From a phage, in the NCBI GenBank assembly GCA_012401045.1, contig GCA_012401045.1_4704.2: DNA of 64,000 nt; one strand, 5' to 3'. Positions 7,978 through 63,363 of this stretch are shown one piece after another (positions within the stretch are counted from its first letter, which is position 1; every line of letters starts with the position of its first letter). The notes under the pieces are model-generated. The model was not told where the DNA came from. It was given only the letters and a program-made list of their open reading frames with translations, and did no database searches. A program made the position numbers and the translations under genes.

Positions 7978-8053
7978 CGTATTTTACCTTTCTATGTTAG
8001 GTGGATTTCGGATAGAAGAATCAATGCATAAACTAATTTAAGTTTGTTAAGGT

Positions 8054-8956: not shown

Positions 8957-9041
8957 GTTGAGCTCCTTGATTACGATAAGGATGATTGCGGTTTTGTGGT
9001 GTTGGTAGGGCCCTAAACAAATGAACCCTACTAATATTAGG

Positions 9042-9824
9042 TTAATCGGGATCGGCGTAGAAATGGTGAGGATAGCCGGAGTACGATCCCGCGTTACCGG
9101 TTATGGATTCTTTCTGGGAATCGACGACGAGTGCATAGAACTGTCGGGAATTTGTTAGCGTTGAGAAATAAGAGGAAAGGACTTTTTCATTCAACGCATC
9201 GCAAGGTAGACAGGTGCGACCGCAAAACGTCACGATACGGCCGTCAGGATAGATCTCACGAATCATTCTCCACTCGCCAATATCGACTGGTGATGGCGCT
9301 GCTACACCACCTGTTATCGTTAAGTAACGATCGTACGTGGTATGGCATTCAGGATGAACGTAAATCGGTTGGGCATCAATACTATCGTTTTCTGTTTGAT
9401 CTTTATTCACGTATACCTCAAGGTAGATTGTTGGTAACCCGGTTAGAACGCCAGTGTCACGACGTTTTTTGGTAATCCGGGGACGGATATTATCGAGCAC
9501 GCCTTCCAGTTTTTCTGCGACTTCGTCAGCCGGTAATATATACCCGTATGTTGGTTCTGGGTCATCACCGTGGCTAAATAAGATACGACAGTCGTTTTTA
9601 TTAAATTCTATATCTTCAGGTGGGAAGATGATGACGCGAACCGTATGGCGTTCTGCGATATAAAATCCTTCAGGCCCCTCAGTTTTGGTAAGTGTAAAGG
9701 ACCAGGATGAATGATCTTCAAGTGACGTGCCTGCCAGGAAAAAGTCCGCCCGAATTGGTGCGTTCCATTTCGCGATCATATTGGCGTGACCAATAACGCC
9801 TAATTTTTGATAAATATCTGTCAT
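9042..9824 (-). CDS. hypothetical protein (260 aa), paralog of 8054..8956
   Basis: ATG with GAGG RBS; conserved promoter-like motif lies upstream; paralogy as above. Confidence 0.7.
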   Translation of the reverse strand: MTDIYQKLGVIGHANMIAKWNAPIRADFFLAGTSLEDHSSWSFTLTKTEGPEGFYIAERHTVRVIIFPPEDIEFNKNDCRILFSHGDDPEPTYGYILPADEVAEKLEGVLDNIRPRITKKRRDTGVLTGLPTIYLEVYVNKDQTENDSIDAQPIYVHPECHTTYDRYLTITGGVAAPSPVDIGEWRMIREIYPDGRIVTFCGRTCLPCDALNEKVLSSYFSTLTNSRQFYALVVDSQKESITGNAGSYSGYPHHFYADPD

Positions 9825-9858
9825 GATTGTATCCTCGGTTATTAAGAGAATTTACAAC

Positions 9859-9910
9859 GATAACAGTAACCGCTGTTATCACCTAGGTAATGTAGTCGCG
9901 AAATAAACTG
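9859..9910 (-). promoter_or_regulatory. conserved ~30-nt promoter-like motif (ATCACCTAGGTAATGTAGTCGCGAAATAAACTG) with adjacent palindrome GATAACAG-N6-CTGTTATC
   Basis: Near-identical copy at ~47084-47135 and partial copy at ~1696-1715, each upstream of a minus-strand gene start and downstream of a family hairpin. Confidence 0.4.
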
Positions 9911-9930
9911 GAGTAATGCGAAATAAGACA

Positions 9931-9975
9931 GCATAAGCCCTCTCCCAACCCGTAAGGGAAGGGAGAGGGAATATT
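9931..9975 (-). terminator. hairpin of the GCATA-CCCTCTCCC...GGGAGAGGG family
   Basis: Abuts stop of 9974..11341. Confidence 0.55.
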
Positions 9976-11341
9976 AAACGGTTGGACGAACGGTGTTGTC
10001 TTTTTCTGGTGCAAGCCATAACGTGACCGTACCATGGCATGTCCACTGTGGTTCACGTACAGAAGAACCTGCCATTGTAACAGCGCAATCGGTACGCATG
10101 ATAACCCCGTATGCTTCGCAGAGATTGTTATCTTGCATCCACACAACTTTAGCAGGCATGCCGGGATACAACATATCCATGTTTGCGTATTCCCACACCA
10201 ACTGCATTGTTCTACCGCGTAATCCAGCAGTATTACTTAATTCACGCCATCGGTTATCGGTTACGCGTCCCATCCCTTTCGCCACCTTCACGTTATCGCT
10301 ACGTTCTTCAGTTACGTACTCGCTAACGTTTACGGTACGACTGATTATCGTATCACCCCCTTTTGATAACGTCATTCCCTGACTCATCTGACTTGCCGAA
10401 ACAAAACGCCCACCCGCATTACCTAACAACGAAGCCGCGTTATTGATGTCGCTTACCGACGCCCCTCTCGTACATGCAATTTCCACGTATTTGTCACGAT
10501 TGATCCAGGTCTTGTCCATGCCCGGAAACATGTCGGCAGGATAGTTGTAAAAGATAGCCGTGCGCCGACCGTCAGAGAAACGGGTTTCGTCGTAGAGAGG
10601 ATAAATATACAGATACGGAGATTGATAATAACAACCGACATCCGCTGAATAAATACCGACCTGGTTCTGGATTTTGTCTACGAGATCCATTGCGTTGGTG
10701 CCGTGCGGAAGAATAAGCAACTTGAACAGGTTGTCGTTATTCGGTGCAACAATATCCACGCCCTGCATTTTGAACCCGGTGTCGGCTTCAACCGCAGAAA
10801 GTATCTTGCTGAATTCGAGCCGTAACACATCCAGCACTTTCGACCCGGTATAGTTTTCACCGGTTTCTGATTGCATGAAGCTTTCAAGAACAGGATCGAA
10901 CAGTTGAAATTGAAGATCGACCATTTGTTCGTAGTCTTTCTTCGAAGAATCGGTTGCGGTACGTTCGTCGTTAGCAGACATACGACTGTCTACGGTTGTT
11001 AAACAAACCGCTCGGTAGACGTAAGCTTGTGCGGCATCGTCTACGGTTTGGCGTTGTCCGCGCATCAGGCTGTACGCCTGCACGATGATGCGCATTTTAA
11101 GTTGTTGTTGGTACGGTAGAATGTATTTTCCGTAACTGCCGGGCGGGAACTTTACAGAGATATAGAGTTCATCTCCAGCGTTACGTTCATAGTCTCGATA
11201 CGTGTGGACTTGAGTCACTAAAGGAACAGACACCGTCATTGACGGCGTGATTAATTCCGCGGTGACTTTATACGCAACAGCAACTGCTTCCTGCGCAAAT
11301 GTACCGATATACCGTCCTAACGGCGTCTGTTTGTAATCCAT
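9974..11341 (-). CDS. hypothetical protein (455 aa), likely virion-associated
   Basis: Long ORF, stop abuts hairpin terminator; translationally coupled to upstream gene. Confidence 0.7.
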   Translation of the reverse strand: MDYKQTPLGRYIGTFAQEAVAVAYKVTAELITPSMTVSVPLVTQVHTYRDYERNAGDELYISVKFPPGSYGKYILPYQQQLKMRIIVQAYSLMRGQRQTVDDAAQAYVYRAVCLTTVDSRMSANDERTATDSSKKDYEQMVDLQFQLFDPVLESFMQSETGENYTGSKVLDVLRLEFSKILSAVEADTGFKMQGVDIVAPNNDNLFKLLILPHGTNAMDLVDKIQNQVGIYSADVGCYYQSPYLYIYPLYDETRFSDGRRTAIFYNYPADMFPGMDKTWINRDKYVEIACTRGASVSDINNAASLLGNAGGRFVSASQMSQGMTLSKGGDTIISRTVNVSEYVTEERSDNVKVAKGMGRVTDNRWRELSNTAGLRGRTMQLVWEYANMDMLYPGMPAKVVWMQDNNLCEAYGVIMRTDCAVTMAGSSVREPQWTCHGTVTLWLAPEKDNTVRPTV

Positions 11342-39840: not shown

Positions 39841-41592
39841 ATGAGCGAACAAGAACGAAAACCTAAGAAGAAACTGCTCGGTATTCAATGTCGACACATC
39901 AGCTATAACGAAGCGAACGATGGCAGCAAGAACGACCTCATGATCGCAAAAGAGATCATGTTCTTTGATGACAATACGCAAGCGACGAACCTTCGCTTCT
40001 TTGAGAATTACAAACGTCCGTTTTGGGTGACGGTAGAGAGTAAACGTAAGAACAAATATAAAAAGGAAAGCGAGAAGCTCTCGCATGTGCGTCGCTACGA
40101 TGTCCGCCAAAGCGAACTGGTTGAAAAGATCAGCTCGGTACTTTATAAAAGACGTGCTGACGATAACACCCGTTTACAGCAGCTTGCACGGAGTCCATAC
40201 CTCTATGGAACGGACGTTAGCGCCAGCTGTTATTTAAAAACCCAGTACAACACAAAATGGCCGGAATACGTCGATAAATTACCCGCTTCCATTGCCTGTT
40301 TCGATATCGAAACCGACGTTGTCCACGGACACGGTAAGATCGTTTGTATGTCTATTACAATGGGATACAATGCGATACTTTGCTATACCAAGGACTTCGT
40401 TGGTCATATTCCGAATGCCATTGAGAAAACCCATGAGAAGATTCGATATTACCTGGCCGAACGTCTGAATACCAAAGAAGATCCCCACGCATTCGAAAAA
40501 TATCAGTACGATGTTCGAATCGTAGAAAGCCCGGCACAAGCGGTCATCCAATGCATGCAGAAGGTTCACGAATGGCAGCCGGATTATCTCCTTGGCTGGA
40601 ATATCGCGTTCGATATTCCGCGCATGCTCCAGGCACTGAACGAGGAAGGGTATCGTCCCGAGGATGTTTTCTCCGATCCCCGTATACCACCTAAATATCG
40701 TATTGCTCGCTGGGTACCACCGAAGACCGACAAGGTATCTGCTTCAGGTCGTAAAACCAACCTTACCCTTGAGCAAACCTGGCCGATGTTTTATACGATG
40801 GCTACGTATCAGGTTATGGATGCGATGTGTGGCTATAAGTTCGTTCGTTTAGGAAGACCGGATGAAGGACGCTATTCACTCGATGCGGTGTTAGAGCGAA
40901 ATAAATGCCATACGAAATTAAAAGCTATTCCTGGTACAGAGGGGTTCACGGAGCTTGCCTGGCACGAAGAGATGCAAACGAACCATCAAATCGACTACGG
41001 CGTATATAACCTTTGGGATAACCAGGGTATTGAGGCGTTGGACCAGAAAACAAAAGACTATTCGATGACCATCCCTATCCGTTTAGCGGCGTCGGATTTG
41101 AAAGATTTCAGTTCTAACCCTAAACGTATCTGCGATAAACTTTTCTTCGTTTATCTTAACCGTGGGGAAGTCATGGGATGTACCGCTGACGACATGACCC
41201 AGGAAGAAGATAAGTGGGTTATCTCACGAGCTGGACATATCGTCACATTACCATGCGATCTCATGGCTGACAACGGCATTCATCTCTTCTGGGATATGCC
41301 GAACCTGAGAAGTTATATCCGTCTATTCGTTGCAGACCTTGACATTAGCAGTTCATACCCGAATGGGCAGATCCTGTTGAATCTATCCAGAGCGTGTGTT
41401 TTTCGCGAGCTCTCACGCATTGAGGGCGTCTCTGACTATCAATTCAGGAAGTTAGGTATCAACTTTATTACCGGAGGTAAAACGAACGCTGTAGACTTCT
41501 GTAGAATCGTTTATAAAGCACCATCGATGTTTGAACTTTTAGAACATTTCGATGCAACGCGTCCAAAAGAGGAAGCGCGGACCATCGAATGA
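39841..41592 (+). CDS. family-B DNA polymerase N-terminal fragment: 3'-5' exonuclease domain plus polymerase motif A
   Basis: Exo I FDIETD, Exo II WNIAFD, Exo III YNLWD, then DISSSYP matching motif A (DxxSLYPS); ORF ends ~80 aa later with no motif B or C. Confidence 0.6.
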   Translation: MSEQERKPKKKLLGIQCRHISYNEANDGSKNDLMIAKEIMFFDDNTQATNLRFFENYKRPFWVTVESKRKNKYKKESEKLSHVRRYDVRQSELVEKISSVLYKRRADDNTRLQQLARSPYLYGTDVSASCYLKTQYNTKWPEYVDKLPASIACFDIETDVVHGHGKIVCMSITMGYNAILCYTKDFVGHIPNAIEKTHEKIRYYLAERLNTKEDPHAFEKYQYDVRIVESPAQAVIQCMQKVHEWQPDYLLGWNIAFDIPRMLQALNEEGYRPEDVFSDPRIPPKYRIARWVPPKTDKVSASGRKTNLTLEQTWPMFYTMATYQVMDAMCGYKFVRLGRPDEGRYSLDAVLERNKCHTKLKAIPGTEGFTELAWHEEMQTNHQIDYGVYNLWDNQGIEALDQKTKDYSMTIPIRLAASDLKDFSSNPKRICDKLFFVYLNRGEVMGCTADDMTQEEDKWVISRAGHIVTLPCDLMADNGIHLFWDMPNLRSYIRLFVADLDISSSYPNGQILLNLSRACVFRELSRIEGVSDYQFRKLGINFITGGKTNAVDFCRIVYKAPSMFELLEHFDATRPKEEARTIE

Positions 41593-42747: not shown

Positions 42748-43146
42748 TTATGCTTCGCAATCAGCTGAAGGCGTCGCGCCTTTCTTACCAGCGATACACC
42801 AAATCCGACACGCTGGGTAATGGTTAACCTCTAGAGAGCAAGGAATGTTATATTTCTCTTCCAGCGCATAAAGACATTTCGTTAGCTGCTCCAGCGCGTT
42901 CTCGTCGTGTCGTAACGCGTGGTGGCCTAATCGATGTTGGTCGTTCTTTATATACGCCTCGAAGAGAACATGTTGGCGATGTACGCTGACGTTTACAGCC
43001 TCGAGTATAGCTTGGTCGAGCATACGACTAAAGCACATCAACGAGTCAGATACGTTTTCTCGCTTAACCAGATCAATCATGGCGGGAATATACGAATGGT
43101 CGATGTTATCGATGACCGCTTTAGCGACGGAATCAGCAACGTTCAT
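42748..43146 (-). CDS. small protein (~132 aa), paralog of 43183..43578
   Basis: Track ORF starts at GTG (43176); first ATG (codon 11) aligns with the paralog N-terminus; shared EEKYNIP[CF]SLEVN block. Confidence 0.65.
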   Translation of the reverse strand: MNVADSVAKAVIDNIDHSYIPAMIDLVKRENVSDSLMCFSRMLDQAILEAVNVSVHRQHVLFEAYIKNDQHRLGHHALRHDENALEQLTKCLYALEEKYNIPCSLEVNHYPACRIWCIAGKKGATPSADCEA

Positions 43147-43182
43147 CTTTTTAATCCCTAGTTTGTTATTGATCACGTATAT

Positions 43183-43578
43183 TTACTCTTTGACGTCAGT
43201 TGTCGTTTCGACATGCTTCTCACTACTGACGTACCAGAGCAGGTACGCTGGGAAAAGATTGACCTCTAAGCTAAATGGAATATTGTATTTCTCTTCCATT
43301 TTACAGAGATGTTCTTTAAGTAAATTTCTCGCGTCTCTGTCACCACGAACAGAGTGCCAGTCTAGTTCTTTGTTCTCCTTTACCAGGACCTCTACGATGA
43401 TACGTTGCTCGTGAACCTCGGTTTTCACAGTGAAAAGTAAATCGCTGCTATCAAAACGGGTAAAACGAATGTATGAACCAGGTGTTTTTTCTTGTTTAAT
43501 AATATCGATCATGGTAGAAATGCGCGGATGATCGATGTTGTCGTTAACAGCTTTAACGATGGATTCTACAATGCTCAT
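43183..43578 (-). CDS. small protein (131 aa), paralog of 42748..43146
   Basis: AAGGA RBS; paralogy as above. Confidence 0.65.
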   Translation of the reverse strand: MSIVESIVKAVNDNIDHPRISTMIDIIKQEKTPGSYIRFTRFDSSDLLFTVKTEVHEQRIIVEVLVKENKELDWHSVRGDRDARNLLKEHLCKMEEKYNIPFSLEVNLFPAYLLWYVSSEKHVETTTDVKE

Positions 43579-43610
43579 TTTTTATCCTTAATGTTATCGA
43601 TTTGGAAATA

Positions 43611-44378
43611 TTACTTATTTTTGCTTTCTTTATAGACAGTTGTTACCCACGATGGGAAAGCCGGATGGAAACAGAGCGTGAACGTAACTGTCGTATCGTA
43701 TTTAAACGCACAGTTCACTAACCGGGTATCTAACGTTTTCCTTAATCCGTCATCATCGTTATCGATGATGGTCATATCTCTTAATATCCCAAGCACGTTA
43801 ACGCCATCGGGTGTCTGGGTTACGACAAGTCGTCGTAATGGCCCGCATGTATAGTCACGTACAAATCCTTTCTTCGGGTCCGATACCCTGTTTAACGCAT
43901 CGTGATTTTTGATGAATTCATCGGCGATACAATAGGTTTGTTCCCTTGCTTTATCGGGATCGTATTCTGCTAATAGTTCCTTCGTGTCGAACGTTATCAT
44001 GTTATTATCATTCGATTCAGAAGGGAAGCATAAAACTAAACGAACAGGGTACTCGTATTGATCTGTTCTCGTTTCGAAAGCATTAGCTAAACACGGCTTG
44101 TATGCCTTTGCGTCGACATTGTCCAAACATGGATGCAATAATGCATGAATAACGGCACCATCGTCAGTTAAACCGAATTCCAGAAATTGTACCCTATCAG
44201 TATCCGCTACGGTTTTCTGAAGGTACGCTTTACCGTTAACAATATCGGTATCCCACATATCGTCGTTTAACGATTCTTCAAACTTATCGAATATATGGTT
44301 TACGAGATTGACGAGTTCATCAATACGGCACTGTTGGTTGAATTCGATTAATCGTTGAACTTTATCTTTGATAGACAT
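43611..44378 (-). CDS. hypothetical protein (255 aa) related to the EYDPD small-protein family
   Basis: Contains LAEYDPD block shared with 44381..44839, 44839..45300 and 45372..45866. Confidence 0.65.
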   Translation of the reverse strand: MSIKDKVQRLIEFNQQCRIDELVNLVNHIFDKFEESLNDDMWDTDIVNGKAYLQKTVADTDRVQFLEFGLTDDGAVIHALLHPCLDNVDAKAYKPCLANAFETRTDQYEYPVRLVLCFPSESNDNNMITFDTKELLAEYDPDKAREQTYCIADEFIKNHDALNRVSDPKKGFVRDYTCGPLRRLVVTQTPDGVNVLGILRDMTIIDNDDDGLRKTLDTRLVNCAFKYDTTVTFTLCFHPAFPSWVTTVYKESKNK

Positions 44379-44380
44379 GA

Positions 44381-44839
44381 TTACCCATTAGCTCCTTCTT
44401 CGTCTGGAGAGTATTCCATCGTGTAGAATTCATAACCATCGGAAAACTTGAGTGTTAATGTAATAGGGAAATCGCACGGCATAGCTGATTTCGTAAATGC
44501 GTTATTAGCAACATCAGCCAACCGACGTATAGCATCAGTCCCGCTGACGCTGAACGGTAGTTGTATGTTGATAAGGATGCGGTGCTTGTAAACATGGAAA
44601 ACAACGGTACTGTCAAGATAAACGCTATGGAACGGTATTGTTGGGATGCGTTCCACAATGGAAAAATACGTCCCGTCATTATCGCTATGCCCCATCGACC
44701 AAATATCGGATTTGCGTAGATTTTGTTTGAGGGATTCGATACTTCGAGTGACGGTCTCATCAACAGGCGTGACGTAAGTGTCTTTATGCGAGTCGAAAAG
44801 TTCGTTGACGTTAGATTCGAATGAATACATTGTTGCCAT
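44381..44839 (-). CDS. small paralogous protein (152 aa), EYDPD family
   Basis: QLPFSVSG and EYSPDEE blocks shared with the downstream paralog; 1-nt overlap coupling. Confidence 0.65.
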   Translation of the reverse strand: MATMYSFESNVNELFDSHKDTYVTPVDETVTRSIESLKQNLRKSDIWSMGHSDNDGTYFSIVERIPTIPFHSVYLDSTVVFHVYKHRILINIQLPFSVSGTDAIRRLADVANNAFTKSAMPCDFPITLTLKFSDGYEFYTMEYSPDEEGANG

Positions 44840-45300
44840 TATTCTACCTCTTTCTTCATCTTCATCGGAACAGAGAGTGCTGTTATCTCTGTTCCATTAT
44901 CCGGTTCATACTCCAATGTAACGAGATTGCAGCCATCCGATAATTCATAATCGATCGCTAGGGGGAACGAGATACCGTGCGACTTTATGCATTTACCAAA
45001 TGTCTCGTTGGCTGTATACATTAGAAGTTGCTTTGCGGCAAGCCCGTTTACGCTGAAAGGTAATTGTGCTGTCGCAGCGATACGATTATTGTAAACTCTG
45101 ATATCGGTGATATCTACAATCGTAGCATTGCCGTGTTGTGTTGTTGGAACGGATAGGTTGTAGAAGTAAGGTTCGGAGTCGGAATCGGGCTCGTTAAATA
45201 ATTCCCAGCACCCGTCCTCCTGCAATCTTACTTCGAGTATTTCAAAGCTTTTAATTATCGATTCTACCAGCTGCTCACCGTAAGAATCCCATGTCGTCAT
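44839..45300 (-). CDS. small paralogous protein (153 aa), EYDPD family
   Basis: QLPFSVNG and EYEPDNG blocks. Confidence 0.65.
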   Translation of the reverse strand: MTTWDSYGEQLVESIIKSFEILEVRLQEDGCWELFNEPDSDSEPYFYNLSVPTTQHGNATIVDITDIRVYNNRIAATAQLPFSVNGLAAKQLLMYTANETFGKCIKSHGISFPLAIDYELSDGCNLVTLEYEPDNGTEITALSVPMKMKKEVE

Positions 45301-45371
45301 TTTTTAACACCTTCGACACCTTTTAACCGATACGTGTCCCATCTAACAAGGGACACGATATCGTTGATTAA

Positions 45372-45866
45372 TTACTCTTCTGTGTTTTCATTGTCAGGAT
45401 CGTAGTGGAATTCGAACAGCCCTGAACCGTCGTGTCCGTTGATTGTTAGTATAACGGGCATATCGAATCCTCGGACACGCGAATGAAAACATTGTGCTAA
45501 TTTTAGTTTGGCGTATGCCGCTACTTCATTGACAGCAATACACGATTCACCTGTTATACTCAGTATAACGTCGATACTAACAACGTTGTCGTGCAACGCA
45601 AAACGCCAGCGATCGATACGATTATTATCTTTATCGGTTGTCTCGTTTACGAGATAGACTTTATCGTCAACCGACAAAGCGGGACTCCAGCAACGATCGT
45701 TTATTAAATTCGCCTGGAGTTTTAGTATCGTCTGATCGATAATATCCCAACACGTAACCAGCGTGGTGTCAGGCACTGAGTAGAGAAGGGCGTGCACTTT
45801 ATCCTTTATTTTAAGTGCTTCCGCAGGACGTCCGCAAATACCATGCATTTCAACTTTCTTATTCAT
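45372..45866 (-). CDS. small paralogous protein (~164 aa), EYDPD family
   Basis: Track ORF starts at GTG (45872); ATG is codon 3; C-terminal FEFHYDPDNEN block. Confidence 0.6.
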   Translation of the reverse strand: MNKKVEMHGICGRPAEALKIKDKVHALLYSVPDTTLVTCWDIIDQTILKLQANLINDRCWSPALSVDDKVYLVNETTDKDNNRIDRWRFALHDNVVSIDVILSITGESCIAVNEVAAYAKLKLAQCFHSRVRGFDMPVILTINGHDGSGLFEFHYDPDNENTEE

Positions 45867-45909
45867 ATTCACTTCTTTCTTAATCTAAATGTTAGTTGGG
45901 GTGGGATGT

Positions 45910-46512
45910 TTACATGCTTTCTAGCATATTGACGATCATGGAACCCATACCGAAACTCGGTCTTTCACCGATGTACTCAGCAAGCTGGCGATGGACGTCT
46001 TTTGGATTTCCTTCTTCACCATCGGCATCGATGTAAACCGAAAAAGAAACCGAATCGGAATCCACGCTGATAACCAGACGACGTTCATTGCGTTCCTTGA
46101 GCGTGTCGACGATAGATGCTTTCAGTACCGGGATCGCATTCATCGCGTGCAAGATATCTCCATCGGGTTTCGGCAGATCGATCTTTTCTTTCAGGTCGAT
46201 ATTGATGTTGGTTACAATTGGATTGAGGTCGACCTTGACATAATCGTTAGGATACATGCGAATAATCGCACGATCGATATCTGAGCCGTAAAAGTCAACA
46301 CGCGGCTTTAACACTTCTTTGTTTGGATCCATGTTTTCATCCATCCCAGCCTGCAAGAAACGTTCTACGTTATCCAGTTCACGATAAACTGACGCTTCGA
46401 TTTCTTTCAGATAGTTGGCTGCGGTTTCATGTTCTTTACGCAGCTCGTCTTTAAGGAGCTGTACGGTGGTTTCACTGGAACGGATGCTGTTCGCGAATTG
46501 TGTAATTGACAT
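45910..46512 (-). CDS. hypothetical protein (~200 aa)
   Basis: Track ORF starts at TTG (46542); first ATG (codon 11) has AAGGA RBS 7 nt upstream. Confidence 0.65.
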   Translation of the reverse strand: MSITQFANSIRSSETTVQLLKDELRKEHETAANYLKEIEASVYRELDNVERFLQAGMDENMDPNKEVLKPRVDFYGSDIDRAIIRMYPNDYVKVDLNPIVTNINIDLKEKIDLPKPDGDILHAMNAIPVLKASIVDTLKERNERRLVISVDSDSVSFSVYIDADGEEGNPKDVHRQLAEYIGERPSFGMGSMIVNMLESM

Positions 46513-46610
46513 ATCGAATTCCTTAAATTCTCTTGAGTTCAATTAATGATGAAAAGCTGTAAAAAAAGGTGGGGCGAACCCCACCAAAACGTCAGACACA
46601 CGCAGGAAAA

Positions 46611-47036
46611 TTAATTCAGTGATGCATATAAGGCATAACGACTGTAGATCTCAACCGCCGGTCCGTTATGTGTTAACAGACCATCCTGGTTGTAATACTG
46701 GAAAAATGAATAACGTTTGTCGAAGTGATAAACAAAAGCGATGTCTTTGCCGTCAAAACCTGTGATGCGTGGTCTGTTTTTATCTAGCAATGCTTTGACT
46801 TTTAACAGTGTTGCCGCACGTGCTTTAACGTTAGGGATCAAGCCATCACAATCGATATAAACGGTGTAACCTGTTTCAGATGTTGCGACGGTTGTATTGC
46901 GATTGACGCGGAAGATTTTTGTTTCGTATGTACTATCTTCAAGAATTGGGTTTTGTTTTTCGTATTTTCGTTTACGTAGAAATTCTACAACGGTGATATA
47001 GTTAGCGGTAATATGCCCGGTTATTGCTTGTAACAT
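46611..47036 (-). CDS. hypothetical protein (141 aa)
   Basis: AAGGA RBS; conserved promoter-like motif ~70-100 nt upstream. Confidence 0.65.
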   Translation of the reverse strand: MLQAITGHITANYITVVEFLRKRKYEKQNPILEDSTYETKIFRVNRNTTVATSETGYTVYIDCDGLIPNVKARAATLLKVKALLDKNRPRITGFDGKDIAFVYHFDKRYSFFQYYNQDGLLTHNGPAVEIYSRYALYASLN

Positions 47037-47083
47037 CTCGACATCCTTTTATATTGGATTGATTGCAATTGTCTTAAATAGAT

Positions 47084-47135
47084 GATAAGATATTTTGCTC
47101 TTATCACTAAGGTAATGTAGTCGCGAAATAAACTG
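47084..47135 (-). promoter_or_regulatory. second copy of conserved promoter-like motif with adjacent palindrome GATAAGA-N8-TCTTATC
   Basis: ATCACTAAGGTAATGTAGTCGCGAAATAAACTG; ~70-100 nt upstream of ATG of 46611..47036. Confidence 0.4.
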
Positions 47136-47156
47136 CGTTAACACGAAATAAAAACA

Positions 47157-47212
47157 GCATAGAACCCTCCTCCCCCATCCTTCAAGAGGACGGTGGGAAG
47201 AGGGAGAGATTA
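47157..47212 (-). terminator. hairpin of the CCCTCCTCCC...GGGAAGAGGG family
   Basis: Overlaps stop of 47210..47611; followed on minus strand by the conserved promoter-like motif. Confidence 0.5.
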
Positions 47213-47611
47213 AATGTCGTGGACGGCAATGCCGTTTAACCAGCAATACAGCTTAACGCGACACGGATACCGCTTCGTTGCGGCAACCATTTCATCGCGT
47301 AAACGCTGGTAGATTTCATCCTGGTGTTCACGTTCAATGGGGTAATCAGCCCAACATTCGATCATGACATCACCATTCGTCAGAATCGTCGTACGCATCC
47401 TGTCCTGGATACGGCGGTCTTTCCCGGCATTAGGGAAATACATTCCTTCAGTACGAATAAGGTCGCCGCAGGGCATGACTAACCATTCGTTCGTTTTGCC
47501 GGTATTCTTATAATCCATTACGGCTTGCATTGCGGTGTCAACGCTAAAAGAAACATAATTCCAAACGGATGTCCAACGATAGATTGCGGGTTGTTCGAGT
47601 GTTTCGTTCAT
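47210..47611 (-). CDS. hypothetical protein (133 aa)
   Basis: ATG-initiated ORF followed by hairpin element at stop. Confidence 0.6.
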   Translation of the reverse strand: MNETLEQPAIYRWTSVWNYVSFSVDTAMQAVMDYKNTGKTNEWLVMPCGDLIRTEGMYFPNAGKDRRIQDRMRTTILTNGDVMIECWADYPIEREHQDEIYQRLRDEMVAATKRYPCRVKLYCWLNGIAVHDI

Positions 47612-48476: not shown

Positions 48477-49778
48477 TTAACTAATATAAAGTTCAGGATC
48501 GTAAGGCGCTAACGATACACTGGCGTTATGCATTGCTTTCATCATAGTGTTCATGAAAACGTTGTTTACACCGGTGATCTCTGCCCCGATCGCGTCTGGG
48601 GTTGGAGCCATCGCGTTACCGCAACAGGTAGCACAGTATTCCAATGGGCCTGCTTTACAACGTTGAGGATCGCGTAACTTGATGGTTTGTCCTTCCAAGG
48701 AAGCAAGTAATTCAGCATCAATAAGTTTAAGCGCCGCACCGTCGATCATGTAACGGCCGACAAGCAGCTTATCTTTGATATGATCGCGGTTTACCGTGAA
48801 CAGAATATGTTCGTGGGTACCGCAGTCGTCCATCGTGATTTTAAGGTTCTGTGTCGCACGTTGTGATTCTTTCGCCGTCTGTCCCGCTAAAGCGGTCAGT
48901 GCGCCACGTGAGAACGAACCTGCACGTGCACTGTTGTTGTACTCCGCCCAATGGTCGACACGCATCCCTTCAGCCAGGCTGTGTGTGATAACGTTACGTT
49001 TACCAGGGTCAACGAAGTCGGCTTCAACCCCCATCATGATGTGTGTTTTCTTTCGAGTATTACCGAAACTCTTGCCTGGGTTAATATAGAACCCTTCCGA
49101 TTCGTCGCCCTTAAAGGATTCTTTATCCATTTTGGTTAGCGTGGCTTCGAGTTTGATCAGTTCTTCAGGCGTGAACTTACCTTCCTCTTGTAAGCGTGCT
49201 AACTCTTTATCGCGATAGGCAATAATATCATCATCGACCGTTAACGCTTTATCACTCATTGATGGAACAATTAAACGGTTGATAGCGGTTAATGCGCTGA
49301 TATTGTTGGTGAATTTCTTCACTTCGCTTGCGTACAACGGACCAATTGGACGTTCGTTAGGATCGGGTATTCCCTCTTCAGGATCGTCCGCTACGCGTGG
49401 CGCAATCAGTGACTCCAGTGTACCGCTGGTCAACCGTCCTGCCTGGTATTCAATCTGAATACCGAAAGCATCATAAAGGACGTACATATTGAACAACGCT
49501 TCACCGAAGGTTGTGGTGGTTGTATTCTTAACCGACGGTAGATCACCAGGTGCAAGCTCCAATGACTCCCAGAAACTCAACAAGGGTTTTGTTGGCTCGG
49601 TTTCCCATTGGTGTTCTTCACCGTCGATGGTAACCGTAACGACGTTACCTTGACGACGTAATTTAGGCTGATACTTCTCAGCGCCGCCTTCCGTAAAAGC
49701 AAATGCGTCGTTAATCCATTCAAGATAACGGTAGTGCCCTTCACGCATCGCGTAAAGGAAATATTCACGAGGTGTCAT
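48477..49778 (-). CDS. multisubunit RNA polymerase beta-prime-like fragment (bridge helix region; 433 aa)
   Basis: AAGGAG RBS. EGMRVDHWAEYNNSARAGSFSRGALTALAGQTA resembles the beta-prime bridge helix ([27 protein letters not shown]); TMDDCGTHEH matches the DDCGTHEG segment that follows it in bacterial RpoC. No NADFDGD, so it is a fragment. Confidence 0.55.
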   Translation of the reverse strand: MTPREYFLYAMREGHYRYLEWINDAFAFTEGGAEKYQPKLRRQGNVVTVTIDGEEHQWETEPTKPLLSFWESLELAPGDLPSVKNTTTTTFGEALFNMYVLYDAFGIQIEYQAGRLTSGTLESLIAPRVADDPEEGIPDPNERPIGPLYASEVKKFTNNISALTAINRLIVPSMSDKALTVDDDIIAYRDKELARLQEEGKFTPEELIKLEATLTKMDKESFKGDESEGFYINPGKSFGNTRKKTHIMMGVEADFVDPGKRNVITHSLAEGMRVDHWAEYNNSARAGSFSRGALTALAGQTAKESQRATQNLKITMDDCGTHEHILFTVNRDHIKDKLLVGRYMIDGAALKLIDAELLASLEGQTIKLRDPQRCKAGPLEYCATCCGNAMAPTPDAIGAEITGVNNVFMNTMMKAMHNASVSLAPYDPELYIS

Positions 49779-49791
49779 GTAACAACTCCTT

Positions 49792-50664
49792 TTAAACCCG
49801 GGTCAGGTCACCGTGACGTGAAACGAACTCTGATAACGCTCGGGTTGCTTCTTTGGATTCTTCAGCCATCGGGAAGTTTGCGGTAATAAGTTCTCGTAAG
49901 ACAGGGACGAGTTCATTATCTTCGAGATCGGAAGCTAAGGCGAATGCAATCAGTTCTTGGGTGTATGCATACGGTTGCTGACGTAATGCAGTAAGCTGAT
50001 CCCGACACTGCGACATTAGCAGGTCCAGTGGAACCGCTATCGTACCCCCTTCATCAATATACTGGCTGAACACCGGTGGGAACGCATCGCTGATGACACG
50101 AATACGTCGACGAATATGATCCGGAATCTGGACGTTTTCTTCGTCGGCGACGTTTTCGCTATCTTTCTCCAGCTTCTTGGTCAGTACCTGCTGGATACGT
50201 GGGAGCAGGCTTGAATGCACAAAACTGATTAATGATGCTACGTCCACAGCATCGACACCGTAAATATAATGCGCGCATTCCGCTAGCGCTTCAGCTGCGG
50301 TGTAGTCTTCATCTTCAACGATAGCGAGTAGAAAAGCGGTATCGTCGTGTGTTTCCAGGTCTAATAACGTAGACGCTAGCGCATGAAGATATTTCAGGCT
50401 ATCCAGAGTTAGCTGCCCTTCGTTAATTCGGATCCCGAAGGCAAGCAATTGTTGTTTATAAAGTTCGATACATCCGTTTGTTAAAATGATGTCTAATTCG
50501 TTTAAATCGTATTGTTCCCCAGCACCTGACAACATCGTACTGCAGAACGTTTCCAGTTGTTCACATTTAAAATCTTGGTATAAACGATGCATGCAGTGCT
50601 GTAACAGCGTACGCCTTGTTTCAGGGATCTTACCTTCTAACAAAGCCAAGACGGAATCAATCAT
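49792..50664 (-). CDS. hypothetical protein (~290 aa)
   Basis: Track ORF starts at GTG (50670); ATG is codon 3 with GGAG RBS. Confidence 0.65.
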   Translation of the reverse strand: MIDSVLALLEGKIPETRRTLLQHCMHRLYQDFKCEQLETFCSTMLSGAGEQYDLNELDIILTNGCIELYKQQLLAFGIRINEGQLTLDSLKYLHALASTLLDLETHDDTAFLLAIVEDEDYTAAEALAECAHYIYGVDAVDVASLISFVHSSLLPRIQQVLTKKLEKDSENVADEENVQIPDHIRRRIRVISDAFPPVFSQYIDEGGTIAVPLDLLMSQCRDQLTALRQQPYAYTQELIAFALASDLEDNELVPVLRELITANFPMAEESKEATRALSEFVSRHGDLTRV

Positions 50665-50760
50665 ATCCACTCCGATGCGGTAAATGTCTACTAGCTCTCA
50701 TAATCTATTGAAGAAACTACCAGCTTACGCCAACTTAGATTAATCAGGAGTAACCATCCC

Positions 50761-59517: not shown

Positions 59518-59565
59518 TAGATTTCCTTATGTGTTAACGGAAGTGACTTCCATAAGGATTGATGA

Positions 59566-62500
59566 TTACTTTTTGAGCGCTTTAAGTTCTTCTTCCATCG
59601 CTTCCACTTTTGCCGTAAGCTTCTGTACTTGTTTGATTAATGGAACCACCAAACGTTCGTACATAACACCTTCGGCGACGAGTCCGTTAGAAGAAACGAT
59701 AGCGGGGTCATCTTCTTCGGTTGCATCACGCCAATGCACGTATTGTGGTGCGATCTCACCAACCTCTTCGGCAATCAACCCATACCAACCCCAATCCTTG
59801 TTGTCGGCTTCGCAGGTAGAACGATACCAGACAGGACGCATCTCCAATACTTTATCCGCTTGTTCATCCGTGATATTCTCGATATCTTTCTTATAGCGCC
59901 GCGACGACGTTGAACGAAACACATTGTTGATCCCAGCAGTAGGACTGATATACATATTAGCCCCGCTGGTTGTAGTGCTAATGTCCCATACCGCAAATCC
60001 GCCGTTACTCCCATTTCTCACGACCAACGTATTGGCAATAATATCCAGGTTATTGTTGTAACCGGTTAACTGGTTTTCGGTGACAAAATCGGATAAGTTA
60101 ACGGAGTAGTTCTTGCTGTTATAACAACGACGCCATCCTGGGCTGTTGGTGCTGCCATTATAGTTGTCGTAGCTATAAATGAACTCGGAGTTGGTTTTCG
60201 CACCACTGACGGAAGACGTGGTTGCGGTGGTAACACGGATAGTGTAGTTCGTCATCCCGAAGCTAACGACCTCGATAACCGCACCAGCCAGAGGAATAAT
60301 ACCACATTTGGTTTCACTGTCTGGGATGTATGCGCTATCGGCAGCAGCGAAGGAGCAACGTGCGACCCAGGCACGGGTATTGAATGCACCTTGGTTCTGT
60401 AATAACGTAATAAACGATGAGGTCGTAATCGAGCTGTTATTATCACCTGTGATCAACCAGCCGGTTGGACATGCGGTAGCACCAACGTTTTTCGCTGTTA
60501 GCGTGATGTTCTTCGATCCGTCGAAGGCTACGCCGCTGATGGTACGTGCAGTCTGTAGCTTCGTCGCCGTTGCCGCGTTCCCTGATGTGTTCTGGTTCCC
60601 TGCCGCATTAACACCAGGCAGATTGATGTTCGCACTACCGTCGAAAGACACCCCGCCAATGGTGCGGGCTGTTTTCAGTTTTGTCGCCGTGGCGGCATTA
60701 CCGGTTGTGTCTTGGTTACCGGTGGTGTTTACCCCAGGTAGATTGATATTTGCCGTTCCGTTAAATGAAACGCCGCCAATCGTCCTTGCCGTTTGCAACT
60801 TCGTTGCAGATGCCGCATTCCCCGTGGTGTTTTGGTTGCCTGTTGTATTCACACCCGGGATACTATCCTTAGATGTGTAGATCTGTGCCCATTCCGACCA
60901 TTTCGCATCGGTTGAATCACGACGTGAACGTAGGTAAGCTGGAGCGTGTGCACCCGAGGTACCTGACCATCCAATGAGGATTTCACCTTCGCCGACCGAT
61001 GAAGCGCCTTTAAGATGAACAACGTTACCGTAGGCTGTAGGGTATCCGTTATTGTACGCTTCATACATCTGGATACCCGTATTGCTGCCCTGGGTCGCAT
61101 TAGCTAAAGCGGTGACCCGTCCCTTGGAAGCGAGCACGTTAATGCTAAAGCTAATATCGGTTGTACCGTCAAAGGCGACCCCATTAATCCTCCGCGCTGT
61201 TTGGAGTTTCGTGGCAGTAGCCGCATTACCAGAGGTACTCTGATTGCCTGCTTTGTTCACACCTGGTAAATCAATGTTGGCGGTTCCATCAAAGGACACG
61301 CCCCCTATGGTTCTCGCCGTCTGAAGTTTTGTTGCTGAACCAGCGTTTCCGGAAGTGCTTTGATTACCCGCCGCGTTGACACCTGGTAGGTTAATGCTAG
61401 CAGAACCATCAAAAGAAACTCCACCGATCGTAATAGCTGTTCGCAACTTCGTGGCTGTCGCAGCGTTACCCGTCGTATTCTGATTACCAGCTGCATTGAC
61501 GCCAGGTAATGCGATATCAGCTGTGCCATCGAACGCGACACCTCCGATTTTACGGGCGGTTTGTAGCTTGGTTGCTGTAGCAGCATTACCGCTGGTATTT
61601 TGCGTACCGGCTTTATTTACACCAGGAAGATCGATGTTAGCAGAACCATCGAAGCTGACGCCACCTATCGTTCTTGCAGTAGCAAGTTTAGCGGCTGTAG
61701 CAGCGACGTTACCGACTTTTAACCATTCTCCCCATGGACCATCCACACCGTTCCATGATGCCGTTAAACTGCGCACGTATATGTTTCCTGTACGTACTGT
61801 GTAACGTTGTGTTCCACCGAATTGACCGGCTGGGAGCACTTCGATGTAACCTACAGCATTTGCTTCAGGGAAATTGTGGGCAGCATCGGCATTCGTTGAT
61901 GTTTGTTTGGACCAAATACCCACAGACGCTTCAACCGGACCGTAGGTATCCAGATTTGCATCGGTGGGGAGCTGTCCTCGAAAACGTCGGAATAATGAAG
62001 CCGATAACCCCAACGTTGTTTGCATCCCTTCAATGCTTGACTGCGATAGAAGCGCCCGAGCTGTCGACGTGATGGCCGCTAAAGCAACCTTATCCGTACC
62101 GGTAAAAAACGGGAATTTGTTTGCTGATGTTGCTAAACCTGAAAGGGCGGTCAGTAATGCGTTAAGGGGTTGTTTCCCGGCTAGCGCGTTAGTCACAGTC
62201 GTTGCAAAGTTTGGATCATTACCTAACGCTTGAGCTAACTCGTTAAGCGTATTTAGCGCTTCTGGAGACGAGTCGATCAGCGACGCGATAGCACGCATCA
62301 CAAATTCCGTGTTGGCGATCTGTTGACTGCTATCGTTCTCTGCAGCCGTAGGTGCTGCTGGGATACCGGTGAACACAGGGTTATTAAGATCCGCCTTAAG
62401 GGCGATGAGACGTCTAAGTGCTTCAACATCGACTTTCAGGTTTTCCCATCCGACGAGATAACCATCACCGGTTGTGTGATAACGGTTGTACCAAAAATCG

Positions 62501-63363
62501 CCATTAACGCCAAAATAAAATATTCCCTTCTCTTCGTATTGTGGGCCAGAACTGTTCCGTGATGAGCTAATGTATTTTATTTCGATAAGGCCGTTGAATA
62601 CCACTCCTGGGATTATTTTGTTGTCTCCAGCTGACTGTGATACCTGGTAAATCCCCGGGGTTGCGGCTTTAACCCACGTTAAGAATTCTGTTACTCCAGC
62701 GGTACCGCTGAAATTCTTAACGTCGGTAAGTATTGCCCCATAACCGAACATACCGGGTAGAGCCACTCGTCCGCTGGTACGGTCACGAATATCTGTTGCA
62801 ACAACAGGTAATTGTTTACGAACGGCATTAACCGCTTTAGGTGTGGCCGATTTTGTCTCGTCGTCGCTATCGGTTTCATTACTTAGAATAGTTAAACCGC
62901 GTGTAGCAGTAGTTGCATCAGGAAGAAATGCGTTATCCAACACCTTAAGCTGTACTGCACTCGTATTACTAACAACGACATGCACTTGACAGTTAAGAAC
63001 GCTGGTTGCGCCTTCGGTAGGCGTAGGCTTATATCTTTCTGGTGCACTGCAGACGGCAATCAGAACACCTTGGTCATCGTACAGACCGATCTCACGTACC
63101 CAGAACCCACCTTGACCAGCAGGAATAATACCCTCAACGATAATCCTGGTTGTGCTATCACCATCCGCATGGATATTAGAAACTTCCCCACGATAAACTT
63201 CGTGAACAAGCGCTGTTTGGCTGGCGGTCGGGGTTGGGATCGAGCCGTTACCATCACCAACGGCAAAGTGTGTGATTTTTAGTTTCTCACCGTCGGGAAG
63301 TAACGCGGCGGTGATACGTTCTGCTCCTTTATCGGTAACTACCGTTATATATGCTGTACTCAT
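59566..63363 (-). CDS. tail fibre protein (1265 aa) with tandem ~40-aa fibre repeats and C-terminal S74-type intramolecular chaperone domain
   Basis: N-terminus resembles tail-fibre N-terminal domains (ITHFAVGDGNG...WVREIGLYD). At least eight repeats of NAATATKLQTARTIGGVSFDGSANINLPGVN. C-terminal SSRRYKKDIENI...WYGLIAEEV matches the S74 chaperone domain pattern. Confidence 0.8.
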   Translation of the reverse strand: MSTAYITVVTDKGAERITAALLPDGEKLKITHFAVGDGNGSIPTPTASQTALVHEVYRGEVSNIHADGDSTTRIIVEGIIPAGQGGFWVREIGLYDDQGVLIAVCSAPERYKPTPTEGATSVLNCQVHVVVSNTSAVQLKVLDNAFLPDATTATRGLTILSNETDSDDETKSATPKAVNAVRKQLPVVATDIRDRTSGRVALPGMFGYGAILTDVKNFSGTAGVTEFLTWVKAATPGIYQVSQSAGDNKIIPGVVFNGLIEIKYISSSRNSSGPQYEEKGIFYFGVNGDFWYNRYHTTGDGYLVGWENLKVDVEALRRLIALKADLNNPVFTGIPAAPTAAENDSSQQIANTEFVMRAIASLIDSSPEALNTLNELAQALGNDPNFATTVTNALAGKQPLNALLTALSGLATSANKFPFFTGTDKVALAAITSTARALLSQSSIEGMQTTLGLSASLFRRFRGQLPTDANLDTYGPVEASVGIWSKQTSTNADAAHNFPEANAVGYIEVLPAGQFGGTQRYTVRTGNIYVRSLTASWNGVDGPWGEWLKVGNVAATAAKLATARTIGGVSFDGSANIDLPGVNKAGTQNTSGNAATATKLQTARKIGGVAFDGTADIALPGVNAAGNQNTTGNAATATKLRTAITIGGVSFDGSASINLPGVNAAGNQSTSGNAGSATKLQTARTIGGVSFDGTANIDLPGVNKAGNQSTSGNAATATKLQTARRINGVAFDGTTDISFSINVLASKGRVTALANATQGSNTGIQMYEAYNNGYPTAYGNVVHLKGASSVGEGEILIGWSGTSGAHAPAYLRSRRDSTDAKWSEWAQIYTSKDSIPGVNTTGNQNTTGNAASATKLQTARTIGGVSFNGTANINLPGVNTTGNQDTTGNAATATKLKTARTIGGVSFDGSANINLPGVNAAGNQNTSGNAATATKLQTARTISGVAFDGSKNITLTAKNVGATACPTGWLITGDNNSSITTSSFITLLQNQGAFNTRAWVARCSFAAADSAYIPDSETKCGIIPLAGAVIEVVSFGMTNYTIRVTTATTSSVSGAKTNSEFIYSYDNYNGSTNSPGWRRCYNSKNYSVNLSDFVTENQLTGYNNNLDIIANTLVVRNGSNGGFAVWDISTTTSGANMYISPTAGINNVFRSTSSRRYKKDIENITDEQADKVLEMRPVWYRSTCEADNKDWGWYGLIAEEVGEIAPQYVHWRDATEEDDPAIVSSNGLVAEGVMYERLVVPLIKQVQKLTAKVEAMEEELKALKK
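60470..61700 (-). repeat. tandem ~120-bp repeats encoding the 40-aa tail-fibre repeats, in two blocks split by a non-repeat insert
   Basis: Antisense track ORFs 60308..60880, 61052..61243 and 61496..61804 show the mirrored periodic peptide pattern. Confidence 0.7.

What the first reader, a model, noticed from the sequence alone, without database searches (positions are those of the whole stretch)
48477..49778. Stand-alone RNA polymerase beta-prime fragment carrying the bridge helix and DDCGTHE segment
The 433-aa protein carries a bridge-helix-like stretch and an exact DDCGTHE match to the segment after the bridge helix in bacterial RpoC. It lacks the NADFDGD catalytic loop and ends where the trigger loop would begin, with a Cys-rich CATCCG tail. 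This fits the split multisubunit RNA polymerases of phiKZ-like jumbo phages and supports that assignment for the whole window. The fragment boundary inside the trigger-loop region is unusual and worth documenting.
Basis: partly seen in the sequence, partly recalled or inferred. Interest (0 to 1): 0.6.

Follow-up and report, generated by a model that had tools for sequence, protein, structure and literature searches.

The report
Jumbo-phage virion RNA polymerase β' middle piece
This gene encodes the already described middle third of the split β' subunit of the RNA polymerase that Goslar/phiKZ-like jumbo phages pack into their heads; it is real and ordinary for these phages, and it ends in the middle of the trigger loop, not before it.

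Summary
The 433-aa ORF at 48477-49778 (-) is real. It is 99.5% identical to gp078 of Escherichia phage Goslar, so the window comes from a Goslar-like nucleus-forming jumbo phage. It matches PHROG 2962 over its full length (E 3e-106) and is the orthologue of phiKZ gp80 and SPN3US gp42. This is the "β'M" subunit of the virion-packaged RNA polymerase, which published mass spectrometry found in Goslar, SPN3US and phiKZ virions.

Homology to bacterial β' extends well beyond DDCGTHE. Profile and fold searches align about 400 residues, roughly E. coli β' 520-940. There is no catalytic DFDGD anywhere in the window.

- The exact DDCGTHE string is partly luck. Only D-C-G is conserved in the family, and Goslar itself reads DDCGTQE.
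- The "Cys-rich tail" is the conserved four-Cys β' zinc site.

After the zinc site comes a 20-residue helix ending in an invariant His, which I read as the first trigger helix with its catalytic His. The protein therefore stops about 16 residues later, at the trigger-loop tip. Related polymerases carry insertions at that point. The boundary is fixed across the family and was described in 2016. Verdict: already known, low interest.

The parts
48477..49778 (-). Complete gene for the virion RNA polymerase β' middle subunit (β'M), 433 aa. It is the orthologue of Goslar gp078, phiKZ gp80 and SPN3US gp42.
   Evidence: ORF listing. 99.5% aa identity to Goslar gp078. PHROG 2962 positions 1-432 of 433, E 3e-106. 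Family profile vs phiKZ gp80 E 1.5e-147. AF2 pLDDT 93.1. Foldseek top hits are all β' chains.
49786..49791 (-). AAGGAG ribosome-binding site 7 nt before the ATG. It sits directly after the stop codon (49794-49792) of the upstream gp79-like gene, which suggests co-transcription.
   Evidence: Sequence read directly.
49479..49517 (-). TTTFGEALFNMYV (residues 88-100), counterpart of the bacterial β' 'TT(V/L)GRA(L/I)' element (E. coli 572-). It marks how far N-terminal the β' homology reaches.
   Evidence: Profile alignment to Streptomyces β' 659-901 starts here. E. coli TTVGR is at 572.
48852..48959 (-). Bridge helix (residues 274-309). R291, T295 and G299 are invariant in the family.
   Evidence: AF2 helix 274-309. 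phmmer alignment to E. coli β' 758-824. Column statistics.
48810..48830 (-). DDCGTHE (residues 317-323). Only D318, C319 and G320 are conserved in the family. C319 is the first ligand of the four-Cys zinc site.
   Evidence: Exact match to E. coli 812-818. Family columns show the exact 7-mer in 1 of 113 members. Goslar has Q at position 322.
48618..48659 (-). CKAGPLEYCATCCG (residues 374-387). The invariant C374, C382 and C385 align with E. coli β' C888, C895 and C898. With C319 they correspond to the second β' zinc site.
   Evidence: Invariant columns. Pairwise and profile alignments to β' 'RSPxxC...CxxCYG'. That these four E. coli cysteines bind zinc is from established knowledge (from memory).
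48528..48590 (-). Predicted first trigger helix ending in invariant His417 (IGAEITGVNNVFMNTMMKAMH). M413, K414 and H417 are read as counterparts of E. coli M932, R933 and H936.
   Evidence: AF2 helix 397-416. H417 is present in 113/113, M413 in 100/113 and M416 in 93/113. HMMER and hmmalign place H417 on phiKZ gp74 H388. Sequence similarity of this stretch alone is not significant.
48477..48527 (-). Conserved 16-residue C-terminal tail (NASVSLAPYDPELYIS) plus the TAA stop. This is the fixed β'M / β'C break point at the trigger-loop tip.
   Evidence: The tail is exactly 16 residues in 106 of 113 aligned members. None of the 150 best family representatives extends more than about 20 residues past the His. 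The stop codon and the next gene 25 nt downstream were read directly.
49792..50670 (-). Upstream gene (292 aa), homologue of phiKZ gp79, which is annotated as a structural head protein. The gp79-gp80 gene pair is conserved in phiKZ and SPN3US.
   Evidence: blastp to phiKZ gp79 E 1e-5. PHROG 5038 E 3e-24. The same adjacency is seen in SPN3US and KTN4/phiKZ.

Best explanation
The gene encodes the middle piece (β'M) of the β'-like subunit of the virion-packaged multisubunit RNA polymerase (vRNAP) of a Goslar-like Chimalliviridae jumbo phage.

In this enzyme β' is made from three separate polypeptides. β'N carries the catalytic Asp triad. β'M is this protein. β'C is a small third piece, the phiKZ gp176 / Goslar gp210 family.

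β'M corresponds to about E. coli β' residues 520-940. It supplies:
- the secondary-channel/funnel helices;
- the F-loop and the bridge helix;
- the four-Cys zinc site;
- the first trigger helix with its catalytic His.

It stops 16 residues after that His, at the trigger-loop tip. Bacterial β' (SI3) and the phage non-virion polymerases carry insertion domains at this point.

The subunits assemble with the two β pieces, are packed into the capsid, and are injected with the DNA. There they transcribe early genes independently of the host polymerase.

Shown here: homology, domain content, boundaries, family-wide conservation and orthology. Taken from the literature: virion location and early-transcription role. 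Inferred: the function of His417, and that the second trigger helix comes from β'C.
For: - Identity of the window: 96.6% nt and 99.5% aa identity to Goslar gp078.
- Family membership: PHROG 2962 full length, E 3e-106, against only a partial match (261-389, E 5e-11) to the 653-position profile phrog_3015, taken to be the non-virion β'C type. The family profile scores phiKZ gp80 at 1.5e-147 end to end, and gp74 at 8e-13 for 315-421 only. SPN3US gp42 is a full-length hit.
- β' homology: phmmer, blastp, profile and hhalign hits. AF2 model has pLDDT 93.1. All top Foldseek hits are bacterial β' or AR9 nvRNAP β'C, with about 400 aligned columns.
- Functional residues are invariant in 113 diverse members: R291, T295, G299, C319, C374, C382, C385, H417.
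- The boundary is fixed. The family has 1284 representatives at E<=1e-3; the 150 best listed are nearly all 415-455 aa. The tail after the His is 16 residues in 106/113, and there are no C-terminal fusions among those 150.
- No DFDGD and no other β/β' gene lies in the window.
- Literature: Goslar virion MS detects gp78 with gp196, gp205, gp207 and gp210 as the five vRNAP subunits. SPN3US gp42 is β'M, lost from virions together with the other vRNAP subunits in a gp241 amber mutant, and gp244 = phiKZ gp176 is proposed as β'C. phiKZ Gp80 co-immunoprecipitates with Gp180, Gp178 and Gp149.
- Goslar gp210 is a phiKZ gp176 homologue, E 7e-26.
Against: - Pfam's RNA_pol_Rpb1 models give no hit at all, so divergence from cellular β' is extreme.
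- The trigger-helix assignment is not supported by sequence statistics on that stretch alone. hhalign and HMMER disagree on its register by about 10 residues.
- Virion location and activity were not tested for this exact phage. They are carried over from a 99.5% identical protein.
Confidence: 0.93

Rival explanations
1. It is the β' C-terminal subunit of the non-virion (late, nucleus-located) polymerase, the counterpart of phiKZ gp74 or AR9 gp154.
For: It shares the bridge helix, Zn site and trigger helix segment with gp74 and AR9 gp154. AR9 nvRNAP β'C is among the top Foldseek hits.
Against: - The match to phrog_3015, taken as the nvRNAP-type profile, is partial (129 residues, E 5e-11), against a full-length E 3e-106 for PHROG 2962.
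- gp74 is 677 aa, with a trigger-loop insertion (396-533) and a C-terminal region that this protein lacks entirely.
- The gp80 profile score is 478 bits, against 34 bits for gp74.
- The 99.5% identical Goslar gp78 is counted among the vRNAP subunits in virions.
Confidence: 0.03
2. It is a truncated, decaying remnant of a β' gene (a pseudogene-like fragment) with no catalytic role.
For: It lacks the catalytic loop and the whole β' C-terminus. Pfam sees nothing.
Against: - The same length and end point recur in the 150 best listed of the family's 1284 representatives (E<=1e-3), across many phage genera.
- Bridge-helix, Zn-site and trigger-loop residues are invariant.
- The AF2 model is very confident.
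- The gene has a strong RBS and an intact frame.
- The protein is detected in virions of three phages.
Confidence: 0.02
3. It is mainly a structural or ejected head protein that keeps an RNAP-like fold but does not work in transcription. phiKZ gp80 is annotated only as 'structural head protein'.
For: The phiKZ and KTN4 records call it a structural or virion-associated protein. It sits next to a head-protein gene.
Against: - Invariance of exactly the residues that matter for catalysis and translocation would not be kept in a purely structural role.
- It co-purifies with, and depends on, the other polymerase subunits.
Confidence: 0.02

Closest known systems
Escherichia phage Goslar gp078 (YP_009820763.1), vRNAP subunit
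   Same: 431 of 433 residues are identical. It has the same neighbours and the same strand. It was detected in Goslar virions as one of five vRNAP subunits.
   Different: There are two substitutions, S72P and H322Q. Goslar reads DDCGTQE, so the exact E. coli 7-mer is peculiar to this window.
phiKZ gp80 and SPN3US gp42 (vRNAP β'M; PHROG 2962)
   Same: Full-length collinear homologues at about 30% identity. They share the same invariant residues, the same 16-residue tail after the His, and the same upstream gp79-like gene.
   Different: phiKZ gp80 is 449 aa, with a 10-residue insertion inside the Cys cluster. Otherwise no difference in kind.
Non-virion polymerase β'C: phiKZ gp74 (PDB 7OGP) and AR9 gp154 (PDB 7S00)
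   Same: They share the bridge helix to trigger-helix core. hhalign gives 97.6% probability, E 3.6e-12, aligning ORF 313-427 with gp74 282-390. Both are Foldseek hits.
   Different: The nvRNAP proteins continue as one chain through a trigger-loop insertion domain (gp74 396-533, AR9 400-508) and the β' C-terminal regions. This protein stops at that very point.
Bacterial β' (E. coli RpoC residues ~520-940)
   Same: It shares the TTxG element, F-loop, bridge helix, DCG, the four-Cys site and the start of region G. E. coli has its SI3 insertion at 942-1129 (as given in PMC7618050), where the phage protein ends.
   Different: Identity is about 17-27%. No Pfam hit. The polypeptide is separate, with neither the catalytic loop nor the C-terminal clamp/hinge regions.
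Natural β'/A splits in cyanobacteria and plastids (RpoC1/RpoC2) and archaea (A'/A'')
   Same: The largest subunit is encoded as separate polypeptides that reassemble. Cyanobacterial RpoC2 matches the family profile from its residue ~140 on.
   Different: Those lineages split once, before the bridge helix (cyanobacteria) or between the bridge helix and the trigger loop (archaea). The split positions are from established knowledge, not tested here. The phage vRNAP splits twice, about 60 residues after the Asp triad and at the trigger-loop tip.

Membership tests
Chimalliviridae / phiKZ-like vRNAP β'M subunit (phiKZ gp80, SPN3US gp42, PHROG 2962) | Full-length, collinear sequence homology to gp80/gp42 | tested here: met
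   PHROG 2962 positions 1-432 of 433, E 3e-106. The family profile covers phiKZ gp80 1-449 at E 1.5e-147. blastp to gp80 gives 5e-49 and to gp42 gives 7e-46.
Chimalliviridae / phiKZ-like vRNAP β'M subunit (phiKZ gp80, SPN3US gp42, PHROG 2962) | Carries the bridge helix, four-Cys site and first trigger helix with His, but no catalytic DFDGD and no β' C-terminal regions | tested here: met
   Invariant R291, T295, G299, C319, C374, C382, C385 and H417. AF2 helices at 274-309 and 397-416. No DFDGD. The trigger-helix identity is inferred, not statistically proven.
Chimalliviridae / phiKZ-like vRNAP β'M subunit (phiKZ gp80, SPN3US gp42, PHROG 2962) | About 415-455 aa, with the C-terminus fixed 16 residues after the invariant His | tested here: met
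   433 aa with a 16-residue tail, as in 106 of 113 aligned members and 131 of the listed representatives.
Chimalliviridae / phiKZ-like vRNAP β'M subunit (phiKZ gp80, SPN3US gp42, PHROG 2962) | Protein is packaged in the virion with the other vRNAP subunits | not testable with these tools
   Literature only. Goslar gp78 (99.5% identical) is in virion MS. SPN3US gp42 and phiKZ Gp80 are in virions or vRNAP pull-downs.
Chimalliviridae / phiKZ-like vRNAP β'M subunit (phiKZ gp80, SPN3US gp42, PHROG 2962) | Partner subunits (β'N, β'C, βN, βC) are encoded elsewhere in the same genome | not testable with these tools
   None lies in the 64-kb window. In the near-identical Goslar genome, gp205, gp207 and gp210 lie at 205-215 kb. 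gp210 is a phiKZ gp176 homologue, E 7e-26.
Chimalliviridae / phiKZ-like vRNAP β'M subunit (phiKZ gp80, SPN3US gp42, PHROG 2962) | Conserved adjacency to a gp79-like gene immediately upstream | tested here: met
   Window gene 49792-50670 vs phiKZ gp79, E 1e-5. The same order is seen in SPN3US, KTN4 and phiKZ.
Non-virion RNAP β'C subunit (phiKZ gp74, AR9 gp154, PHROG 3015) | Single chain of about 630-680 aa that continues through a trigger-loop insertion domain and the β' C-terminal conserved regions | tested here: not met
   The ORF ends at the position equivalent to gp74 ~390-404. Only 129 residues match the 653-position profile.
Cellular RNA polymerase β'/Rpb1 (Pfam RNA_pol_Rpb1 domains) | Passes the curated Pfam domain models | tested here: not met
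   No Pfam family even at E<=10. Homology is nevertheless clear from profile and fold searches, so it is a remote homologue, not a member by Pfam criteria.
vRNAP β'C (phiKZ gp176 / SPN3US gp244 / Goslar gp210) as the carrier of the second trigger helix and region H | Detectable homology of that family to the β' C-terminus | tested here: inconclusive
   - AF2 model pLDDT 81.
- The Foldseek top hit is AR9 nvRNAP β'C, at E 0.054.
- hhalign gives E 0.24-0.35.
- The published HHpred evidence was also weak, E 0.05.

The most novel reading that the evidence does not exclude
The virion polymerase may work with a trigger loop that is physically broken at its tip. The first helix and the catalytic His sit at the very end of this protein, followed by a conserved 16-residue tail. 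The second helix would be supplied in trans by the separate 236-aa gp210/gp176-type protein, or be missing altogether. No virion-polymerase structure turned up in the literature search. If the second helix is truly absent or replaced, this would be a multisubunit polymerase that catalyses with half a trigger loop. The split has been suggested to relate to packaging and ejection of the enzyme through the tail. The existence of the split itself was already inferred in 2016.
Probability: 0.3. Interest if true: 0.45.

Novelty: already known. Interest (0 to 1): 0.15.

Why it matters
It matters mainly as annotation.
- It fixes the window as a Goslar-like nucleus-forming jumbo phage of E. coli.
- It names one of the five subunits of the injected early polymerase.
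- The residue-level map may be useful to anyone modelling or mutating the still unsolved virion polymerase. It covers the bridge helix 274-309, the Zn ligands C319/C374/C382/C385, the trigger helix 397-416 with His417, and the break 16 residues later at the site where related enzymes carry insertions.

It does not open a new question.

Tried and rejected
- **Pfam scan of the ORF:** nothing even at E 10.
- **σ70 promoter and terminator scan of 46.5-51.5 kb:** promoter-like sites at chance level. The only strong terminator-like hairpin is at 46585-46568 (-), well downstream.
- **Other polymerase pieces in the window:** a six-frame motif scan and tblastn with E. coli RpoC, Goslar gp207 and gp210 found none.
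- **Sequence-only test of the trigger helix:** profile columns 30-72 against E. coli 904-945 and gp74 356-400 scored no better than shuffles.
- **Rfam on the window and Goslar 72-105 kb:** no hits at gathering threshold.
- **Host-gene capture as the source of DDCGTHE:** considered and rejected. Identity to E. coli β' is only 27% over 147 residues, and the sister phage lacks the exact string.

Full report
**What is there.** The window holds an ATG-started ORF on the minus strand at 48477..49778 (433 aa).
- An AAGGAG ribosome-binding site lies 7 nt upstream and abuts the stop codon of the preceding gene. A TAA stop is followed 25 nt later by the next gene.
- DDCGTHE is at residues 317-323 and is identical to E. 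coli β' 812-818. CATCCG is at 382-387.
- Neither the ORF nor any of the six frames of the window contains DFDGD.

**Where the window comes from.**
- The ORF is 96.6% identical in DNA to Escherichia phage vB_EcoM_Goslar. At the protein level 431 of 433 residues are identical.
- Most of the 64 kb aligns to Goslar 41.5-103.5 kb at 94-98% identity, apart from a few indels and more divergent stretches such as the tail-fibre gene.
- The ORF is the counterpart of Goslar gp078, annotated in RefSeq as 'RNA polymerase beta subunit'. The jumbo-phage assignment for the whole window is therefore correct.

**Is the β' resemblance more than a 7-mer?** Yes.
- phmmer against PDB sequences aligns residues 263-329 with E. 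coli β' 758-824.
- Pairwise blastp extends this to 264-391 against 759-904, E 5e-8.
- A full scan of 1.84 billion representative proteins gives 1284 relatives at E<=1e-3. The 150 best listed are nearly all 415-455 aa.
- A profile of 113 relatives hits bacterial β' chains at E 5e-10. The alignment starts at the TT(F/L)G element (ORF residue 88; E. coli 572) and runs through the bridge helix.
- The AlphaFold2 model is very confident (pLDDT 93.1, pTM 0.82). Its Foldseek hits in the PDB are all β' chains or the AR9 non-virion β'C, with about 400 aligned columns.
- Pfam's own Rpb1 models see nothing, which shows how divergent the family is.

**What the conserved residues say.** The invariant columns in the 113-member alignment are G250, R291, T295, G299, C319, C374, C382, C385 and H417.
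- R285, G287, T295 and G299 fall on E. coli R780, G782, T790 and G794 of the bridge helix. AF2 predicts a 36-residue helix at 274-309.
- C319, C374, C382 and C385 align with E. coli C814, C888, C895 and C898. From established knowledge these are the ligands of the second β' zinc site.
- The exact DDCGTHE string is not conserved. Only D-C-G is, the 7-mer occurs in 1 of 113 members, and Goslar itself has DDCGTQE.

**Where the protein ends.** Instead, 48 residues follow CxxCxG.
- They contain a predicted helix at 397-416 capped by His417, which is invariant. M413 and M416 are nearly invariant, and Lys is the commonest residue at 414 (57 of 113). The pattern FMKxMHG resembles E. coli TMRTFHIGG (M932, R933, H936).
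- HMMER aligns the family profile to phiKZ gp74 through residue 394, with His417 on gp74 His388. The gp74 trigger-loop insertion is residues 396-533 (PMC7618050).
- hhalign gives 97.6% probability for ORF 313-427 against gp74 282-390, with a register about 10 residues different at the very end.
- In either register the chain stops at the trigger-loop tip. At this site gp74 and AR9 gp154 (insertion 400-508; PMC9209446) carry insertion domains, as does E. coli (SI3, 942-1129 as cited).
- Caveat: the trigger-helix stretch on its own scores no better than shuffles against E. coli or gp74. This step rests on collinearity, predicted structure and invariance.
- The end point is fixed. The tail after the His is exactly 16 residues in 106 of 113 members. 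None of the 150 best representatives is fused to anything C-terminal.

**Which polymerase.** The protein belongs to the virion enzyme.
- PHROG 2962 is matched end to end (E 3e-106). The 653-position profile phrog_3015, taken to be the non-virion type, is matched over 129 residues only.
- The family profile scores phiKZ gp80 at 478 bits over its full length, and gp74 at 34 bits.
- SPN3US gp42 is a full-length homologue.
- Thomas et al. 2016 (PMC5105663) list gp42 (431 aa) as vRNAP β'M. They show it vanishes from virions with the other vRNAP subunits in a gp241 amber mutant. They note that the known vRNAP pieces lacked the β' C-terminus (regions a17-a20) and propose gp244 (= phiKZ gp176) as that missing β'C.
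- phiKZ Gp80 co-precipitates with Gp180, Gp178 and Gp149 (PMC10612078).
- The gp79-like gene upstream is conserved too.

**Partners.**
- None lies in the window.
- In Goslar, gp210 is a homologue of phiKZ gp176 (E 7e-26).
- This remains inconclusive, as was the published HHpred result (E 0.05).
- The annotated Goslar β'N gene, gp205, ends without DFDGD. An in-frame 'FDGDTVSVNVL...' segment of about 62 codons lies just past the annotated group I intron and the HNH gene gp206. If the two pieces are spliced, β'N ends about 58 residues after the Asp triad. That fits β'M beginning near E. coli position ~520.

**Mechanism.** This protein supplies the funnel helices, F-loop, bridge helix, zinc site and first trigger helix of the injected early polymerase. 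It assembles with β'N, β'C, βN and βC, is packaged, and transcribes early genes after injection.
- The roles of the individual residues are inferred from homology.
- Packaging and early transcription come from the cited papers.

**Verdict.** The finding is real and correctly interpreted in outline, but it is already known and annotated. The corrections are the ones given above: the position of the boundary in the trigger loop, the nature of the Cys cluster, and the non-conservation of DDCGTHE.

Noticed in passing
window 39841-41592 (+); Goslar NC_048170 81185-82967 (L002 ~9185-10967): The DNA-polymerase-B-like ORF is uninterrupted in the window (583 aa). Goslar has a 1.78-kb insertion at this point carrying the NUMOD1/HNH endonuclease gene gp069, which cuts its annotated polymerase gene gp068 to 499 aa. 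The window is therefore the endonuclease-free allele. Rfam found no intron model at gathering threshold in either sequence.
   Followed up: partly
window 8030-9820: About 1.8 kb here has no counterpart in Goslar, where about 90 bp sit instead. It holds two minus-strand ORFs (8054-8956, 300 aa; 9042-9824, 260 aa) with no Pfam hit.
   Followed up: partly
window 42756-47611: A run of small minus-strand genes (about 130-255 aa) lies just downstream of the polymerase gene. Several look like paralogues by eye, sharing a '...LPFSV.G...' and '...EY.PD.E' C-terminal pattern in the translations. About 1.6 kb of this run (42756-44395) is absent from Goslar.
   Followed up: no
window 59554-62093 (within ORF 59566-63363, 1265 aa): The tail-fibre gene (Goslar gp090, P1 gpS-like) is only 67-87% identical to Goslar and aligns to it in several shifted registers, which indicates internal repeats. 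This is likely a host-range difference between the two phages.
   Followed up: no
Goslar NC_048170 211570-215264 (L003 41572-45001, L017 57-1565), outside the window: The annotated vRNAP β'N gene gp205 ends '...APYLAGLGGDQ...WQI*' with no Asp triad. An in-frame 'RFDGDTVSVNVLYSMEAIDEITN...PRGA*' follows the annotated Intron_gpI RNA and the HNH gene gp206. The group I intron appears to split the catalytic DFDGD motif, and exon 2 is not annotated.
   Followed up: partly
window 48813-48815 (codon 322) and 49563-49565 (codon 72): The only two amino-acid differences from Goslar gp078 are H322Q and S72P. The His at 322 is what creates the perfect DDCGTHE match to E. coli.
   Followed up: yes
metagenomic relatives P0011, P0025, P0057, P0067 (not in the window): Four family members carry an extra N-terminal domain of about 145 aa ('YHGS...DGE.AVFAT...') fused to the β'M body. 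No member carries a C-terminal fusion. The extra domain was not identified.
   Followed up: no
window 49792-50670 (-): The gene upstream of β'M is a weak homologue of phiKZ gp79, annotated as a structural head protein. It keeps the same tight or overlapping junction with the polymerase gene in phiKZ, KTN4 and SPN3US. Its function is unknown (PHROG 5038, no Pfam hit).
   Followed up: partly
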